In this document: one piece after another, positions 44,331 through 49,621 of the stretch | How positions within the stretch are numbered: position 1 is the first letter of the stretch | How the letters are laid out: each line of letters opens with the position of its first letter | DNA from: Promethearchaeota archaeon | GTDB taxonomy: Archaea > Asgardarchaeota > Lokiarchaeia > Sigyniarchaeales > SOKP01 | Direction: 5' to 3' | Assembly (NCBI GenBank): GCA_048940445.1 | Contig: JBHLON010000010.1 | Location: 22,102 to 86,101 of the forward strand | DNA length: 64,000 bases | The notes under the pieces: generated by a model | The model's database searches: none | The model's input: only the letters and a program-made list of their open reading frames with translations | Told to the model about the DNA's origin: nothing | Made by a program: the position numbers and the translations under genes

Positions 44331-45137
44331 ATGGAATTAACTGAAGATCAAATTGAAAGATATTCTCGCCAGATAATTTTAAGCGAAATTGGGAGCATTG
44401 GACAGAAAAAGCTATTAGCTTCTAAGGTATCATTAGTTGGTTTGGGAGCTTTAGGATCCTCCGCAGCTTATTATTTAACAGCTGCAGGAGTTGGAAGATT
44501 GCAGTTGATTGACTATGATGTGGTGGAAATTTCTAATTTACATCGACAAATTCTTTATTACACTCACGATATAGATCATTATAAAACAGACACTGCTATT
44601 AAAAAGTTAAATGCACTTAATCCTGATTGCAAAATAGAAATTATCACTGAGAAGATTAATCCGGACAACTCAAGGAAAATTTTGGGTGATTCTGATTTTG
44701 TTATTGAAGGTTCAGATAATTTTCCAACAAAAATGTTAATCAATGATACCTGTGTGCATTTAAAAATACCATTTACAATAGCAGGAGTTTTAAGATTTCA
44801 TGGACAAATGATGACAGTCGTTCCTGAAGACAAAACAACATGTTATAAATGCATTTTTGATAATGTAAATGGAATGGATCCAAATATGACTTGTTCTGTA
44901 GCAGGAGTTATTGGAGCTGCACCAGGAATTTTTGGTTGTTTAGAAGCTAATGAAGCTTTAAAGTCTCTTCTAAATATTGGAGAACTAATGGTAAATAAAA
45001 TCTTGTTTATTGATATTCTTAGAAATACTTTTAGTTTTATTGATGTCTATCGAAACACTAATTGTAAATCTTGTGGTGAGAATCCAAAAGCATTTGAAGA
45101 AATCACAGACTATTGGAGTGAAGATTTTTGCAGGTAG
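44331..45137 (+). CDS. moeB: ThiF/MoeB/UbaA E1-like adenylyltransferase
   Basis: RYSRQ, GLGALG, SNLHRQ, CYKC, catalytic TC and CKSC. Confidence 0.92.
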   Translation: MELTEDQIERYSRQIILSEIGSIGQKKLLASKVSLVGLGALGSSAAYYLTAAGVGRLQLIDYDVVEISNLHRQILYYTHDIDHYKTDTAIKKLNALNPDCKIEIITEKINPDNSRKILGDSDFVIEGSDNFPTKMLINDTCVHLKIPFTIAGVLRFHGQMMTVVPEDKTTCYKCIFDNVNGMDPNMTCSVAGVIGAAPGIFGCLEANEALKSLLNIGELMVNKILFIDILRNTFSFIDVYRNTNCKSCGENPKAFEEITDYWSEDFCR

Positions 45138-45394
45138 ATAATAAAAGTGAAGAGCATAAAGGTTTTTATAAGCTAGATATAAGAGGAAAAGTTTGTCCAA
45201 TGACTTTTGTATATACTAAAGTTGAACTTGAGAAGCTTAAGAAAGATGATATCCTAGAAGTAATATTAGATTTTGAACCAGCACTTAAAAATATTCCAAC
45301 AAGTTGCGAGCGCCAAAAATTAGCAATTCTTTTAAAGACAAAATCAATTAATTCAAATCCAAAAGAGTGGATGCTTAGACTTAAGAGGATTTAA
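45128..45394 (+). CDS. tusA: TusA-family sulfur carrier
   Basis: LDIRGKVCPMT; overlaps the E1 stop. Confidence 0.88.
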   Translation: MQVDNKSEEHKGFYKLDIRGKVCPMTFVYTKVELEKLKKDDILEVILDFEPALKNIPTSCERQKLAILLKTKSINSNPKEWMLRLKRI

Positions 45395-45421
45395 TAATTT
45401 TCCTAGTTCCCATTCTAATTT

Positions 45422-45733
45422 CTATCCCCCGGCGATAGCAGGTAAAAATGAGAGCTCATCACCATCCTGTAATAAAGTTTTTAAATTATTGAGAGAACGG
45501 ACGTCTTTACCATTCTTAGCTATGATTATATAATCATTAATCTCATTTGGATTTTTTAATATTAGTTTTTCAAATTTTCTTCCAAAAACTAGAATTATTC
45601 GTTTAATAGCATCATTAATAGTAGATCTTTCATTAGCAAATAACATTATTTCATCCTTATTTGTTATATCGCTAATTACTGAGAAAAAAGAAACTCTAAT
45701 TTGGATCATATAATCTTTTTTAATATCATTCAC
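45422..45733 (-). CDS. MoaD/SAMP ubiquitin-like sulfur carrier
   Basis: NGKDV...LQDGDELSFLPAIAGG with C-terminal GG; start may be ATG 45709. Confidence 0.92.
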   Translation of the reverse strand: MNDIKKDYMIQIRVSFFSVISDITNKDEIMLFANERSTINDAIKRIILVFGRKFEKLILKNPNEINDYIIIAKNGKDVRSLNNLKTLLQDGDELSFLPAIAGG

Positions 45734-46805: not shown

Positions 46806-48209
46806 TTAAAGTTGCGATTCGTCAATTTTAGGCATTTCCTCAGAATTTAAGTTTTCTTGAATTTCACGATCGGGCATTTCGTATTCTTTTAAATTTCCAT
46901 TCATAAACTCCTCGTAAGCCAACAAATCAAAGAAACCATGTCCGCTGAGATTGAATAAGATAACTTTTTTCTCACCATCCTCATTGGCTTTCAATGCTTG
47001 ATCAATAGCTTCTTTCACTGCATGAGCACTTTCAGGTGCAGGAAGTATTCCTTCAGCTTTAGCAAATTGAAGACCGGCACTAATTACTTCTGTTTGATAA
47101 TGCATAGATGTATTAATGATTCGATTATTATTCAAGATCGAAATTATGGGAGCCATTCCATGATATCTTAATCCTCCTGCATGAATTGGGCTAGGGATAA
47201 AATTATGACCTAAAGTATGCATTTTCACAATAGGTCCTTTCATTGCAGAATCTCCGTAATCCCACCGATACTCCCCTTTAGATACACTTGGACATGCTCG
47301 AGGTTCCACTCCAATTAATTCCATATCTGGACTTTTCCCATTTAATTTTTCTATGGCAAATGGGATCATCAAACCAGCAAAATTTGAACCTCCTCCCATA
47401 CAACCAATAATAACATCTGGTTTTTCAATATGAGCTTTAGTTAGTTGAATTTTTGCTTCTTGCCCTATAATTGTCTGGTGTAGCAACACAAAATTAACCA
47501 CACTTCCAAGAGAATACTTTATTTTATCACTTCGCATGCTATGTTCTAATGCTTCAGATATCGCAATTCCTAAACTTCCTGGATGTTCTTGATCTTTCTC
47601 CAAAAACTTTTTCCCTGAATCAGTTAGATTTGAAGGACTCGCAAAAACTTCGGCATTAAAGGCTCTCATCATTATTTTTCTCCCTGGTTTTTGAATAAAG
47701 CTCGCTCTTACCATATATACTGTACATTTTAGACTGTATAGACTACATCCATATGCTAAAGCAGAACCCCATTGTCCTGCACCAGTTTCGGTAACAAGTT
47801 CCTCTAATCCCTCTTTCTTTGCGTAATATGCTTGTGTTATAGCTGTATTAGGTTTATGCGATCCTGTTGGAGAAGTTGATTCATTTTTATAAAAAATTTT
47901 AACTTTATCTCCTTCTAAACCTAATTGCTGCTCCAATCCGTAAGCACGGTGGAGCGGACTAGGACGATATGTTCTAGCAAAAATTTCTCTTAGTTCTTTT
48001 GGAATGGGGATTAAAGGATCAGAAGAAAGTTCTTGCAATACACACTCTTTAGGAAAAATTGCAAATGCCATTTCAGGAGGAATGGGTTTCCCATCCATTG
48101 GATTTAATAACGGTGTCATAGGAGTGGGTAAGCATGGTAAAATATTTACCCAATTCTTTGGTATTTCGTTAGGTTGTAACAAGATCCGTCCATTAAATAT
48201 ATTTGACAT
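46806..48209 (-). CDS. trpB2: Tryptophan synthase beta chain, TrpB2 type
   Basis: SPTGSHKPNT (PLP Lys), TETGAGQWG, GGGSNF, HAGGLRYHG, PAPESAHA and NLSGHG. Confidence 0.95.
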   Translation of the reverse strand: MSNIFNGRILLQPNEIPKNWVNILPCLPTPMTPLLNPMDGKPIPPEMAFAIFPKECVLQELSSDPLIPIPKELREIFARTYRPSPLHRAYGLEQQLGLEGDKVKIFYKNESTSPTGSHKPNTAITQAYYAKKEGLEELVTETGAGQWGSALAYGCSLYSLKCTVYMVRASFIQKPGRKIMMRAFNAEVFASPSNLTDSGKKFLEKDQEHPGSLGIAISEALEHSMRSDKIKYSLGSVVNFVLLHQTIIGQEAKIQLTKAHIEKPDVIIGCMGGGSNFAGLMIPFAIEKLNGKSPDMELIGVEPRACPSVSKGEYRWDYGDSAMKGPIVKMHTLGHNFIPSPIHAGGLRYHGMAPIISILNNNRIINTSMHYQTEVISAGLQFAKAEGILPAPESAHAVKEAIDQALKANEDGEKKVILFNLSGHGFFDLLAYEEFMNGNLKEYEMPDREIQENLNSEEMPKIDESQL

Positions 48210-48236
48210 ATTAAATACCTTAAATATTTACTTTCT

Positions 48237-48252
48237 CACATCTTAGGATGTG
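48237..48252. promoter_or_regulatory. Small inverted repeat in the trpB2 5' region
   Basis: CACATC-TTAG-GATGTG, 28 nt upstream of the start codon. Confidence 0.4.
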
Positions 48253-48328
48253 TATCATTAAAAAATTGGAGATCAATGTAATTAATGCCCATTTAAAAAG
48301 AAGAATTAATATTTACAGAGGAAATATT

Positions 48329-48398
48329 AAAAAGAAAAAATAAATCTGAATAAAAACCGATGCAGTTGGCTCTATTGCCAACGCCAAGGCCACTGCCA
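48329..48398 (-). promoter_or_regulatory. Candidate attenuator: alternative hairpins followed by U-tracts
   Basis: GTTGGC-AATAGA-GCCAAC stem spanning the leader stop; GCAGTGGC can compete for GCCAACTGC; TTTTT and TTTTTTCTTTTT follow. Confidence 0.6.
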
Positions 48399-48422
48399 AG
48401 ATAGAATTCTTAGAGTTGCCAT
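48372..48422 (-). CDS. trpL: Trp-rich leader peptide MATLRILSWQWPWRWQ (not in the ORF track)
   Basis: ATG at 48422, four TGG codons among the last eight sense codons, TAG at 48372-48374; same strand as trpB2 and about 160 nt upstream of it; TATA-like TTTTTAAAT about 30 nt upstream. Confidence 0.85.
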   Translation of the reverse strand: MATLRILSWQWPWRWQ

Positions 48423-48534
48423 AATATTAAATAAAGTTATATCTAAAAACATTTAAAAATCTTTTGAAATTTACTTGAAATAATTCGAATTTTAATTCTC
48501 TACAAAAACTTTATGTTAAAGAGTTTTTAACAAA

Positions 48535-48903
48535 ATGCTAAAATTTTCGTTTGTAGTTGCTGCTGAACCATATAAGTATGAAGCAATTGATACAGTTATA
48601 AATTTAGGTGAAGCTGTTATTAAAAAAGGTCATAAATTGTTAGGCATTTTCTTTTTTGGCAGTGGTGTATATAATATTAAAAAAGATCGGAAGTTATTCA
48701 CCTCAGTTAGAGACTTACCGAAAAGACTTCAGGAGTTTGCTGAAAAAAACGATAGTAGAATTGCAGCATGCAGCACATGGGTAAGTATAACTGGATTGAA
48801 AGAATCAGACTTTATTACACAAGCATGTTCCGATGGATTAGGTGGGCTTTCAGAATTAATTGGAAATTCTGATCGCGTTGTATTTTTTGGGCCTGGGAGG
48901 TGA
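48535..48903 (+). CDS. dsrE: DsrE/TusD-like sulfurtransferase (copy 2)
   Basis: EPY, IFFFGSGVYN, AACSTW active Cys and GLGGLSE. Confidence 0.85.
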   Translation: MLKFSFVVAAEPYKYEAIDTVINLGEAVIKKGHKLLGIFFFGSGVYNIKKDRKLFTSVRDLPKRLQEFAEKNDSRIAACSTWVSITGLKESDFITQACSDGLGGLSELIGNSDRVVFFGPGR

Positions 48904-48909
48904 GGAGAT

Positions 48910-49275
48910 ATTACATCCGTTTTAATAATTTGTGAAGATTCTCCCTTCGGAAAAAATTCCGCTGTTGAATCAATTAGATTGGCTGCAGGAATTATAAGTT
49001 TGGGAGATATTGAGAAGTGCCAAGTATTATTACTAGGAGATGCAATATTCTTTCTAAATAAAAACGTGAATGCTTCAGCTACGAATATGGATTCACTTGA
49101 TGATATGATTAGGTTGATTGAATTATCCGAACTGCACATTATTGTAGCACTAGAAGATCTTATTGCATTAGGTCTTGATAAAAATGACTTAATTTCATAT
49201 CAGAATTTAGATTTTATGGATAATATGGCCGTTTCCAAACTAATATTGGAAAATGATCTTTGTTTTAAATTTTAA
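48910..49275 (+). CDS. dsrF: DsrF/TusC-like protein (copy 2), probable ATT start
   Basis: In-frame ITSVLIICEDSPFGKNSA upstream of the listed TTG matches paralog MIKSVVIISDQSPIGKNSA; GGAGGTGA SD. Confidence 0.82.
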   Translation: MTSVLIICEDSPFGKNSAVESIRLAAGIISLGDIEKCQVLLLGDAIFFLNKNVNASATNMDSLDDMIRLIELSELHIIVALEDLIALGLDKNDLISYQNLDFMDNMAVSKLILENDLCFKF

Positions 49276-49288
49276 TAAAGTGATATAA

Positions 49289-49621
49289 ATGGAGAAAATT
49301 CTTTATCTTTTTGGGTATAGTATAAACAATTATACACCATTAGTAAAAATAGTAAATATAATACGACAACAGAAGGAATTAGGTGCAGATATCTCATTTA
49401 TATTTATGCATGATGGTGTCATCGGTCTTACCAAAGAATCTAAATTAAATGACCCTTTATTAAGCCTCATCGATCTGAATATTTCTCTCTATATTCTTCT
49501 TCCTGATCTTAAAGCTCGTGGAATCAATCCAGATAAAGTATTAGATAATATCATTAAAATTGAATATGAAATTCTTGTAGACCTATTAGCAAGAAATTCA
49601 AGAATAGTATCTTGGTTGTAA
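49289..49621 (+). CDS. dsrH: DsrH/TusB-like protein (copy 2)
   Basis: HDGVIG, PDLKARGI and VSW terminus. Confidence 0.85.
   Translation: MEKILYLFGYSINNYTPLVKIVNIIRQQKELGADISFIFMHDGVIGLTKESKLNDPLLSLIDLNISLYILLPDLKARGINPDKVLDNIIKIEYEILVDLLARNSRIVSWL

What the first reader, a model, noticed from the sequence alone, without database searches (positions are those of the whole stretch)
48329..48460. Unannotated Trp-rich leader peptide and attenuator-like RNA upstream of trpB2 in an archaeon
Seen: minus-strand ATG GCA ACT CTA AGA ATT CTA TCT TGG CAG TGG CCT TGG CGT TGG CAA TAG (48422-48372) = MATLRILSWQWPWRWQ. It has four alternating Trp codons in a GC-rich patch of an otherwise very AT-rich spacer, directly upstream of a Trp-synthesis gene. 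A TATA-like TTTTTAAAT lies about 30 nt before the ATG. All four Trp codons sit in TGGC words that can compete for a single downstream GCCAACTGC, and U-tracts follow. Established: Trp-codon leader peptides drive attenuation in bacteria; archaea couple transcription and translation and terminate at oligo-U tracts with aCPSF1/FttA; to my knowledge leader-peptide attenuation is not experimentally established in archaea. Inference: ribosome stalling under Trp limitation controls read-through into trpB2, by hairpin switching or by shielding U-tracts from FttA.
Basis: partly seen in the sequence, partly recalled or inferred. Interest (0 to 1): 0.9.

Follow-up and report, generated by a model that had tools for sequence, protein, structure and literature searches.

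The report
Tryptophan-sensing leader peptide in Asgard archaeon
A 16-codon mini-gene with four tryptophan codons, set in a conserved folded RNA, sits in front of the only tryptophan-making gene found in this Asgard archaeon and in front of tryptophan genes in about a hundred related loci; it most likely lets a stalling ribosome sense tryptophan shortage, a control known from bacteria for which I found no report in archaea.

Summary
Observation confirmed; interpretation largely supported. The uORF (48422-48372, minus strand, four Trp codons) is the only one with three or more Trp among 1,832 spacers of its genome. It precedes trpB2, the only Trp-synthesis gene found there. Equivalent Trp-ending uORFs precede trpB2 in 74 of 84 family loci, in 13 of 13 loci from the order's other families, and in ten trpD-led operons (four found without using the leader). 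Frame is kept in 56 of 56 aligned cases and the N-terminus is not conserved. Conserved RNA parts: a TATA peak, a hairpin over the last Trp codons and stop, a segment pairing with the uORF start, a U-rich tract, and a covarying downstream stem (P3). No classical terminator/antiterminator or anti-Shine-Dalgarno switch was found. Best model: ribosome-gated premature termination by FttA/aCPSF1 (about 0.55); Trp sensing by the ribosome itself about 0.88. No RNA data exist here, so the output step is inferred. This scan had already found the same element on other Asgard DNA (at least 13 genomes).

The parts
48452..48465 (-). TATA-like box with purine-rich BRE-like bases just upstream; likely promoter of the leader
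   Evidence: In relatives a TATA-like word lies 50-68 nt before the uORF start in 71 of 73 loci, against 9-20 of 73 in equal windows elsewhere. This genome lacks about 25 nt relative to L002, which moves the box to -37.
48372..48422 (-). Leader ORF, 16 codons, Trp at codons 9, 11, 13, 15, stop two codons after the last Trp
48378..48398 (-). Trp-codon block (sensor); also constrained at nucleotide level
   Evidence: After Trp codons CAG is used 68 times and CAA 24 times (genome 5,442 against 23,906); CGT 60 times and AGA never (genome 4,394 against 20,388).
48365..48382 (-). P2 hairpin: last Trp codon paired with the post-stop arm, stop codon in the loop
   Evidence: MFE; two registers across the family, both with changes on both sides.
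48357..48362 (-). Element B (consensus CA-N-N-GG), start of the 3' arm of P1, which pairs with the uORF start region and 5' UTR in relatives; P1 is weak in this genome
   Evidence: Cognate duplex -8.25 against -5.91 kcal/mol for distant non-cognate pairs, better than median in 42 of 58 loci; becomes unpaired when a ribosome is modelled on the stop codon, 0.55 against 0.36.
48329..48344 (-). U-tract 1, candidate FttA/aCPSF1 loading or termination site
   Evidence: 13 T in 15 nt here; family mean T fraction 0.59-0.61 at +30 to +50 after the stop against 0.40-0.41 behind ordinary genes.
48295..48330 (-). AU-rich 9-bp hairpin (48330-48306) followed by U-tract 2 (48305-48295); seen in this clade
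   Evidence: folds; alignment.
48248..48292 (-). P3: conserved irregular stem-loop with a 3-nt bulge and a sequence-conserved apex; role unexplained
   Evidence: 14 pairs in three helices, 76-94% paired, 10 pairs with changes on both sides; same fold in leader copies in front of trpD operons. Family f1 only.
48237..48252 (-). P4: small hairpin that competes with the base of P3; present in part of the family
48216..48221 (-). Shine-Dalgarno-like bases 6 nt before the trpB2 start
   Evidence: alignment.
46806..48209 (-). trpB2, stand-alone tryptophan synthase beta-2, the regulated gene
   Evidence: PRK12391 625.6 bits, TIGR01415 581.5 bits, both over cut-off.

Best explanation
The stretch is a ribosome-read tryptophan sensor (a trpL-like leader) that attenuates trpB2, most likely by conditional premature termination through the archaeal factor FttA/aCPSF1. 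Step 1 (shown by comparison): a promoter drives a short ORF whose only constant feature is 2-6 Trp codons placed 1-2 codons before the stop. Step 2 (inferred from known attenuators): with plenty of charged tRNA-Trp the ribosome runs through and is released at once; P2 and P1 fold over the Trp block, the stop and the uORF start, so no new ribosome loads, and RNA polymerase crosses the U-rich tract untranslated; FttA cuts and terminates. Step 3 (inferred, weakest): when Trp is short the ribosome stays on the Trp codons, P2 cannot form, and the ribosome parked close behind the polymerase keeps FttA from engaging, so transcription reads through P3 into trpB2. Physiological sense (inferred): the genome has a tryptophanase-family gene and trpB2 but no trpA, trpB1, trpC or trpE was found, so TrpB2 would rebuild Trp from indole and should be off when Trp is plentiful. 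I put the sensor step at about 0.88 and the whole model, with termination as output, at 0.55.
For: Unique in the genome (1 of 1,832 spacers). Present before trpB2 in 74 of 84 distinct family loci, 13 of 13 loci with upstream DNA in three other families of the order, 4 of 6 in other orders, about 7 of 20 elsewhere in the phylum. Present before an unrelated first gene, trpD: 4 of 4 operons found through trpB1 and 6 more found through the leader pattern. Start-to-Trp distance is 30, 33 or 36 nt in 56 of 56 aligned cases. Last Trp is 1-2 codons from the stop in 60 of 73. N-terminal residues and length vary freely. Named stems: 86.8% paired, 13 of 19 pairs with changes on both sides, 0 of 500 shuffles as high, slid controls 28-55%. 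U-rich, G-poor tract after the stop. FttA gene present, in two pieces at contig ends. FttA prefers U-rich RNA and its exclusion by the ribosome is proposed in PMC11616081. uORF-to-gene distance varies from 64 to 456 nt across lineages, which fits control of transcription better than coupling of translation.
Against: No antiterminator or other consistent switch: modelled ribosome position changed U-tract and Shine-Dalgarno accessibility by 0.02 or less on average; cross-pairing tests of the Trp block or element B with P3 or the Shine-Dalgarno region show no cognate preference. An unbiased tree-aware covariation scan gave no pair at E below 1, and the named-structure test leans toward a structure derived from these sequences. 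The U-tract begins about 28 nt after the stop, beyond a direct footprint, and a second tract lies further on. The model gives P3, the best-conserved structure, no role, and P3 lies downstream of the presumed termination zone. Ribosome/FttA exclusion is a hypothesis in the cited paper, not a result.
Confidence: 0.55

Rival explanations
1. Same Trp sensor, but the output is translation: ribosome stalling rearranges the leader (U-tract, P3, P4) so that the start region of trpB2 opens, as in mycobacterial polycysteine leaders; termination, if any, is secondary polarity.
For: P3 is conserved, travels with the leader to trpD operons and sits at a fairly constant 48-76 nt before the next start codon. 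In this clade U-tract 1 can form a 12-bp helix with the purine run just before the Shine-Dalgarno. In some distant short-spacer loci (L079, L106) a predicted hairpin covers the Shine-Dalgarno. Precedent: bioRxiv 10.1101/834739.
Against: No cognate-specific pairing of the Trp block, element B, U-tract or P3 with the Shine-Dalgarno/AUG; Shine-Dalgarno accessibility does not change with ribosome position; spacer length varies seven-fold across lineages.
Confidence: 0.22
2. Same sensor, but the output is RNA stability: a stalled ribosome protects the finished mRNA from 5' decay or from cleavage in the U-tract, and P3 acts as a roadblock to 5'-to-3' nucleases.
For: FttA is an endo- and 5'-to-3' exonuclease acting on U-rich RNA (PMC11616081); P3 lies just 3' of the U-tracts and has no partner in the sensor.
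Against: No direct evidence; P1, which buries the uORF start after translation, is not needed for this model.
Confidence: 0.11
3. The peptide itself acts: either a nascent-chain arrest peptide that senses free Trp in the exit tunnel (TnaC-like) or a small trans-acting protein.
For: The C-terminal W-Q-W-P-W motif is strongly kept within the family.
Against: Spacer residues, number of Trp (2-6), length (about 13-45 codons) and N-terminus all vary; 1-nt deletions after the Trp block that change the C-terminus are tolerated (L140, L142); codon bias shows RNA-level, not peptide-level, constraint. The tryptophanase gene of this genome has no Trp-bearing uORF. TnaC-type arrest induces on excess Trp (own knowledge), the wrong sign for biosynthetic operons.
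Confidence: 0.07
4. A non-coding structured RNA or protein-binding repeat (TGGC words) whose reading frame is incidental, or chance.
For: The Trp block is constrained at nucleotide level; ten family loci lack the uORF before trpB2, some keeping P3.
Against: Frame kept through three different start-to-Trp lengths in 56 of 56 cases; unique in the genome; tied to Trp genes at two non-homologous positions; three genomes that lack it before trpB2 carry it before their trpD operon (G045, G067, G093).
Confidence: 0.05

Closest known systems
E. coli trpL-type ribosome-mediated transcription attenuator (Rfam RF00513 Trp_leader); actinobacterial trp attenuators (PMC1262725)
   Same: Short leader ORF with clustered Trp codons ahead of Trp-biosynthesis genes, embedded in hairpins, with a U-rich stretch downstream; peptide sequence otherwise free.
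   Different: Archaeal host and TATA promoter; Trp codons alternate with one spacer codon and abut the stop; no GC-rich terminator hairpin with adjacent U-run and no antiterminator found; no Rfam match.
Factor-dependent attenuation: E. coli tnaC/Rho and predicted Rho-dependent leaders with regulatory codons next to the stop (PMC1262725)
   Same: Sensor codons at the end of the leader ORF followed by a long untranslated pyrimidine-rich spacer with no intrinsic terminator.
   Different: The factor would be the nuclease FttA/aCPSF1 rather than Rho; sensing is by shortage of charged tRNA, not by excess free Trp (inferred from the biosynthetic genes downstream).
Mycobacterial polycysteine sORF translational attenuators (bioRxiv 10.1101/834739)
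   Same: Cognate codons near the stop of a short, nearly leaderless ORF; no classical terminator.
   Different: There the sORF RNA pairs with the downstream ribosome-binding site; no such conserved pairing was found here.
Known archaeal trp regulation: TrpY repressor (Methanothermobacter) and Tar/TK0271 activator (Thermococcus) (PMC6737238)
   Same: Controls Trp-biosynthesis genes in response to Trp.
   Different: Both are DNA-binding proteins acting at initiation. From memory, unverified (paper not held): Xie and Reeve 2005 proposed that a single Trp codon at position 2 of trpY limits its translation; that is not a leader peptide ahead of the biosynthetic genes.

Membership tests
Leader-peptide (trpL-type) attenuator | Short ORF in the 5' leader enriched in codons of the pathway's amino acid | tested here: met
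   Four Trp in 16 codons; 1 of 1,832 spacers.
Leader-peptide (trpL-type) attenuator | Sensor codons, start and frame conserved while the rest of the peptide drifts | tested here: met
Leader-peptide (trpL-type) attenuator | Located upstream of genes of the cognate pathway, on the same transcript | tested here: met
   Upstream of trpB2 and of trpD operons, same strand, TATA peak upstream of the uORF; co-transcription itself is inferred.
Leader-peptide (trpL-type) attenuator | Intrinsic terminator hairpin (3:4) directly followed by a U-run | tested here: not met
   No terminator-like site in 48150-48560; the conserved U-tract lies 12-14 nt beyond element B.
Leader-peptide (trpL-type) attenuator | Mutually exclusive antiterminator (2:3) favoured by stalling | tested here: not met
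   No conserved alternative pairing or accessibility switch; equilibrium folding of AU-rich RNA can miss kinetic switches.
Leader-peptide (trpL-type) attenuator | Translation of the leader and Trp-dependent read-through | not testable with these tools
   No RNA holder listed.
Rfam Trp_leader families | Covariance-model match at gathering score | tested here: not met
   Best hits 23 bits or less, E 0.8 or more, unrelated families.
FttA/aCPSF1-dependent terminator | U-rich untranslated RNA and the factor encoded in the genome | tested here: met
   U-tract; TIGR03675 matched in two pieces at contig ends, 541.9 and 368.6 bits.
FttA/aCPSF1-dependent terminator | Factor-dependent 3' end mapped in the tract | not testable with these tools
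   Needs Term-seq with factor depletion.
TnaC-like arrest peptide | Fixed residues at fixed distance from the stop, upstream of a catabolic gene | tested here: not met
   Variable spacing and residues; the tryptophanase gene has no such leader.
tRNA-Trp anticodon-arm mimic (for P3) | 7-nt loop with CCA at 34-36 closed by a paired 31-39 position | tested here: not met
   Closing pair forms in 40% of sequences.

The most novel reading that the evidence does not exclude
Asgard archaea use a ribosome-gated attenuator with no terminator/antiterminator pair, in which Trp-dependent stalling decides whether the CPSF73/Integrator-related nuclease FttA cuts the nascent leader: a natural regulatory use of ribosome-versus-FttA competition, joining bacterial attenuation with eukaryote-like cleavage-dependent premature termination, with P3 as a so far undescribed functional RNA module.
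Probability: 0.4. Interest if true: 0.9.

Novelty: new variant of a known kind. Interest (0 to 1): 0.78.

Why it matters
Leader-peptide attenuation is textbook in bacteria, but nine searches of the held library turned up no report for archaea, where described trp control is by DNA-binding proteins (PMC6737238). A conserved, portable 200-nt element gives a direct test of an open question stated in PMC11616081: whether the archaeal ribosome and FttA exclude each other on nascent RNA and whether cells use that for regulation. Because it is found in the archaeal lineage closest to eukaryotes, it also bears on the origin of uORF control and of cleavage-based premature termination. It is invisible to annotation and to Rfam. 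Caveats: subscription papers are not in the library, and this scan has reported the element before on other Asgard genomes.

Tried and rejected
RNAalifold on the full 63-sequence alignment gave no consensus structure (gappy, two hairpin registers). A tree-aware covariation scan found no pair at E below 1; its best base-pairing hit (columns 251/293) pointed to the P3 base helix. A tRNA-Trp anticodon mimic for the P3 apex was rejected. Pairing of Trp codons with the P3 apex is possible on paper but has only one clade-level change and no cognate preference. A U-tract/purine-run helix is good in this clade only and no better than shuffled across the family. Ribosome-constrained folding showed no switch. 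No RNA holder listed for this DNA. Rfam gave nothing. No convincing cognate-codon leader for other amino acids was seen in this genome by eye on unannotated hits. The longer in-frame start at 48452 overlaps the TATA box and is not conserved, so it is unlikely to be used. Ten off-target matches of the leader pattern were chance. Local folding z-scores around the stop are modest (family mean -0.9, distant loci -0.6), so the hairpin rests on covariation, not stability. Xie and Reeve 2005 could not be read.

Full report
Observation. The minus strand at 48422-48372 encodes a 16-residue ORF with Trp at codons 9, 11, 13 and 15. A TATA-like word ends 30 nt before its ATG, and U-tracts follow at 48344-48329 and 48305-48295. 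The next gene, 162 nt after the stop, is trpB2. A DsrE/TusD-like gene starts on the other strand at 48535. Contigs from other sequencing runs, three studies in all, cover the uORF without listed changes in it. The nearest named relatives are Promethearchaeota (Lokiarchaeia-type Asgard) MAGs.

Chance. I called ORFs over the whole genome and scanned every spacer of at least 120 nt. Of 1,832 spacers, only this one holds a short ORF with three or more Trp in its last ten codons; eleven hold two. The single outlier lies in front of the one Trp-synthesis gene found in this 93% complete genome: no trpB1, trpA, trpC or chorismate-binding enzyme such as TrpE was found. A tryptophanase-family gene is present (PRK13238, 528 bits, cut-off 285) and has no Trp-bearing uORF. 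That TrpB2 condenses free indole with serine is established knowledge (own knowledge); a Trp-degrading and a Trp-rebuilding enzyme in one cell give a reason to shut trpB2 off when Trp is plentiful (inference).

Conservation. trpB2 orthologues were collected from the genus, family, order, class and phylum. In the family, 74 of 84 distinct loci carry a uORF with 2-6 Trp codons about 190-260 nt upstream. In three other families of the order all 13 loci with upstream DNA carry one; so do 4 of 6 loci from other orders and about 7 of 20 from the rest of the phylum. The last Trp is one or two codons from the stop in 60 of 73 family cases. The distance from the aligned start to the aligned Trp codon is 30, 33 or 36 nt in all 56 scorable cases. 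The N-terminal residues vary freely. These genomes are related, so the counts are not independent events; the spread over several families and orders is what carries weight.

The strongest functional evidence is that the leader follows the pathway, not the gene. Four de novo operons found through trpB1, each beginning with trpD, have a Trp-ending uORF 130-210 nt upstream (L069, L071, L073, L075). A pattern search then found six more complete copies of the family-type leader in front of trpD operons (L162-L166, L169); these six were selected on the feature. Three of those genomes (G045, G067, G093) lack the leader before trpB2.

RNA anatomy. A TATA-like word lies 50-68 nt before the uORF in 71 of 73 loci; this genome has lost about 25 nt there relative to L002, leaving a predicted 5' UTR of about 10 nt (inference). 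Codon choice after Trp is the reverse of the genome's (CAG over CAA, CGT and never AGA), so the block is also under RNA-level constraint. P2 pairs the last or second-last Trp codon with a post-stop arm and puts the stop in the loop; it exists in two registers. Element B, 8-12 nt after the stop, begins an arm that pairs with the uORF start and 5' UTR (P1); cognate pairs are stronger than distant non-cognate ones. A U-rich, G-poor tract follows at +30 to +50 (T 0.59-0.61 against 0.40-0.41 behind ordinary genes). P3, an irregular stem-loop with a 3-nt bulge and a nearly invariant apex, lies further down. P2 plus P3 score 86.8% paired with 13 of 19 pairs changed on both sides, above all 500 shuffles and all slid controls, and P3 keeps its fold in five of the six trpD copies. 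The caution is that the structure was read from these sequences and an unbiased tree-aware scan found no significant pair.

What was not found. There is no intrinsic terminator, no conserved antiterminator and no anti-Shine-Dalgarno pairing. Folding 51 leaders with a ribosome placed on the first Trp, last Trp or stop codon left U-tract, Shine-Dalgarno and P3 unchanged on average; only element B was affected.

Mechanism. Sensing by ribosome stalling on Trp codons is very likely (about 0.88). For the output I favour conditional termination by FttA/aCPSF1: the gene is present, the factor prefers U-rich nascent RNA and is proposed to compete with the ribosome (PMC11616081), archaea terminate at U-stretches with or without the factor (PMC8116511), Trp codons next to the stop make ribosome release the timed event, P1 and P2 would block reloading, and the spacer length varies from 64 to 456 nt across lineages. 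Against it, the U-tract is out of direct footprint range and P3 is unexplained. Translational control (0.22) and stability control (0.11) remain open.

Comparison. It works like a trpL attenuator but fails two defining tests of that family (terminator and antiterminator) and has no Rfam match. In layout it is closer to factor-dependent leaders and to mycobacterial cysteine leaders (PMC1262725; bioRxiv 10.1101/834739). Described archaeal trp regulation uses TrpY and Tar (PMC6737238). Library searches and spot reading of archaeal Ribo-seq papers showed uORFs in archaea but no amino-acid-sensing leader peptide; absence from this library is not proof of absence from the literature.

Earlier scan notes. 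Sixteen findings in at least 13 other genomes describe the same kind of leader. They are unchecked AI notes and I did not count them as evidence; my reading was fixed before I opened them.

Verdict. Real, conserved, almost certainly regulatory; a new archaeal variant of leader-peptide attenuation whose output step is still to be shown. Interest 0.78.

Noticed in passing
window 44331-45733 and 48535-49621: Sulfur-relay genes flank trpB2: a MoeB/ThiF E1-like enzyme, TusA and a ThiS/MoaD-family carrier on one side, and divergent DsrE/TusD- and DsrH/TusB-like genes on the other. The divergent gene starts only 112 nt from the uORF start, so the two promoters share a short spacer.
   Followed up: partly
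L004:752-1180 and many family loci: In most relatives the leader lies just downstream of a Roadblock/LC7 gene; in this genome the upstream neighbour has been replaced.
   Followed up: partly
L160:1375-3003 (G000 C84): Tryptophanase-family gene with no Trp-bearing uORF upstream.
   Followed up: yes
L094, L145, L146: Loci that lost the promoter-uORF part but keep P3 (L094 also keeps the P2 3' arm and element B): recent decay, or a role of P3 that does not need the uORF.
   Followed up: partly
L164:301-411, L165:749-988, L169:688-987: A small, partly decayed ORF (37-80 codons) sits between the leader and trpD in three genomes; not identified.
   Followed up: no
L079, L106, L114: In distant Asgard loci with short spacers (64-91 nt) a predicted hairpin covers or abuts the Shine-Dalgarno of trpB2, so the output of the leader may differ between lineages.
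   Followed up: no
G000 C119:72724-73836 and C122:6-848: The FttA/aCPSF1 gene is split over two contig ends; an assembly break, not evidence of a broken gene.
   Followed up: no
L070:5205-5258: A two-Trp short ORF overlaps the end of an upstream gene 358 nt before a trpB1-trpA cluster; a weaker candidate leader.
   Followed up: no
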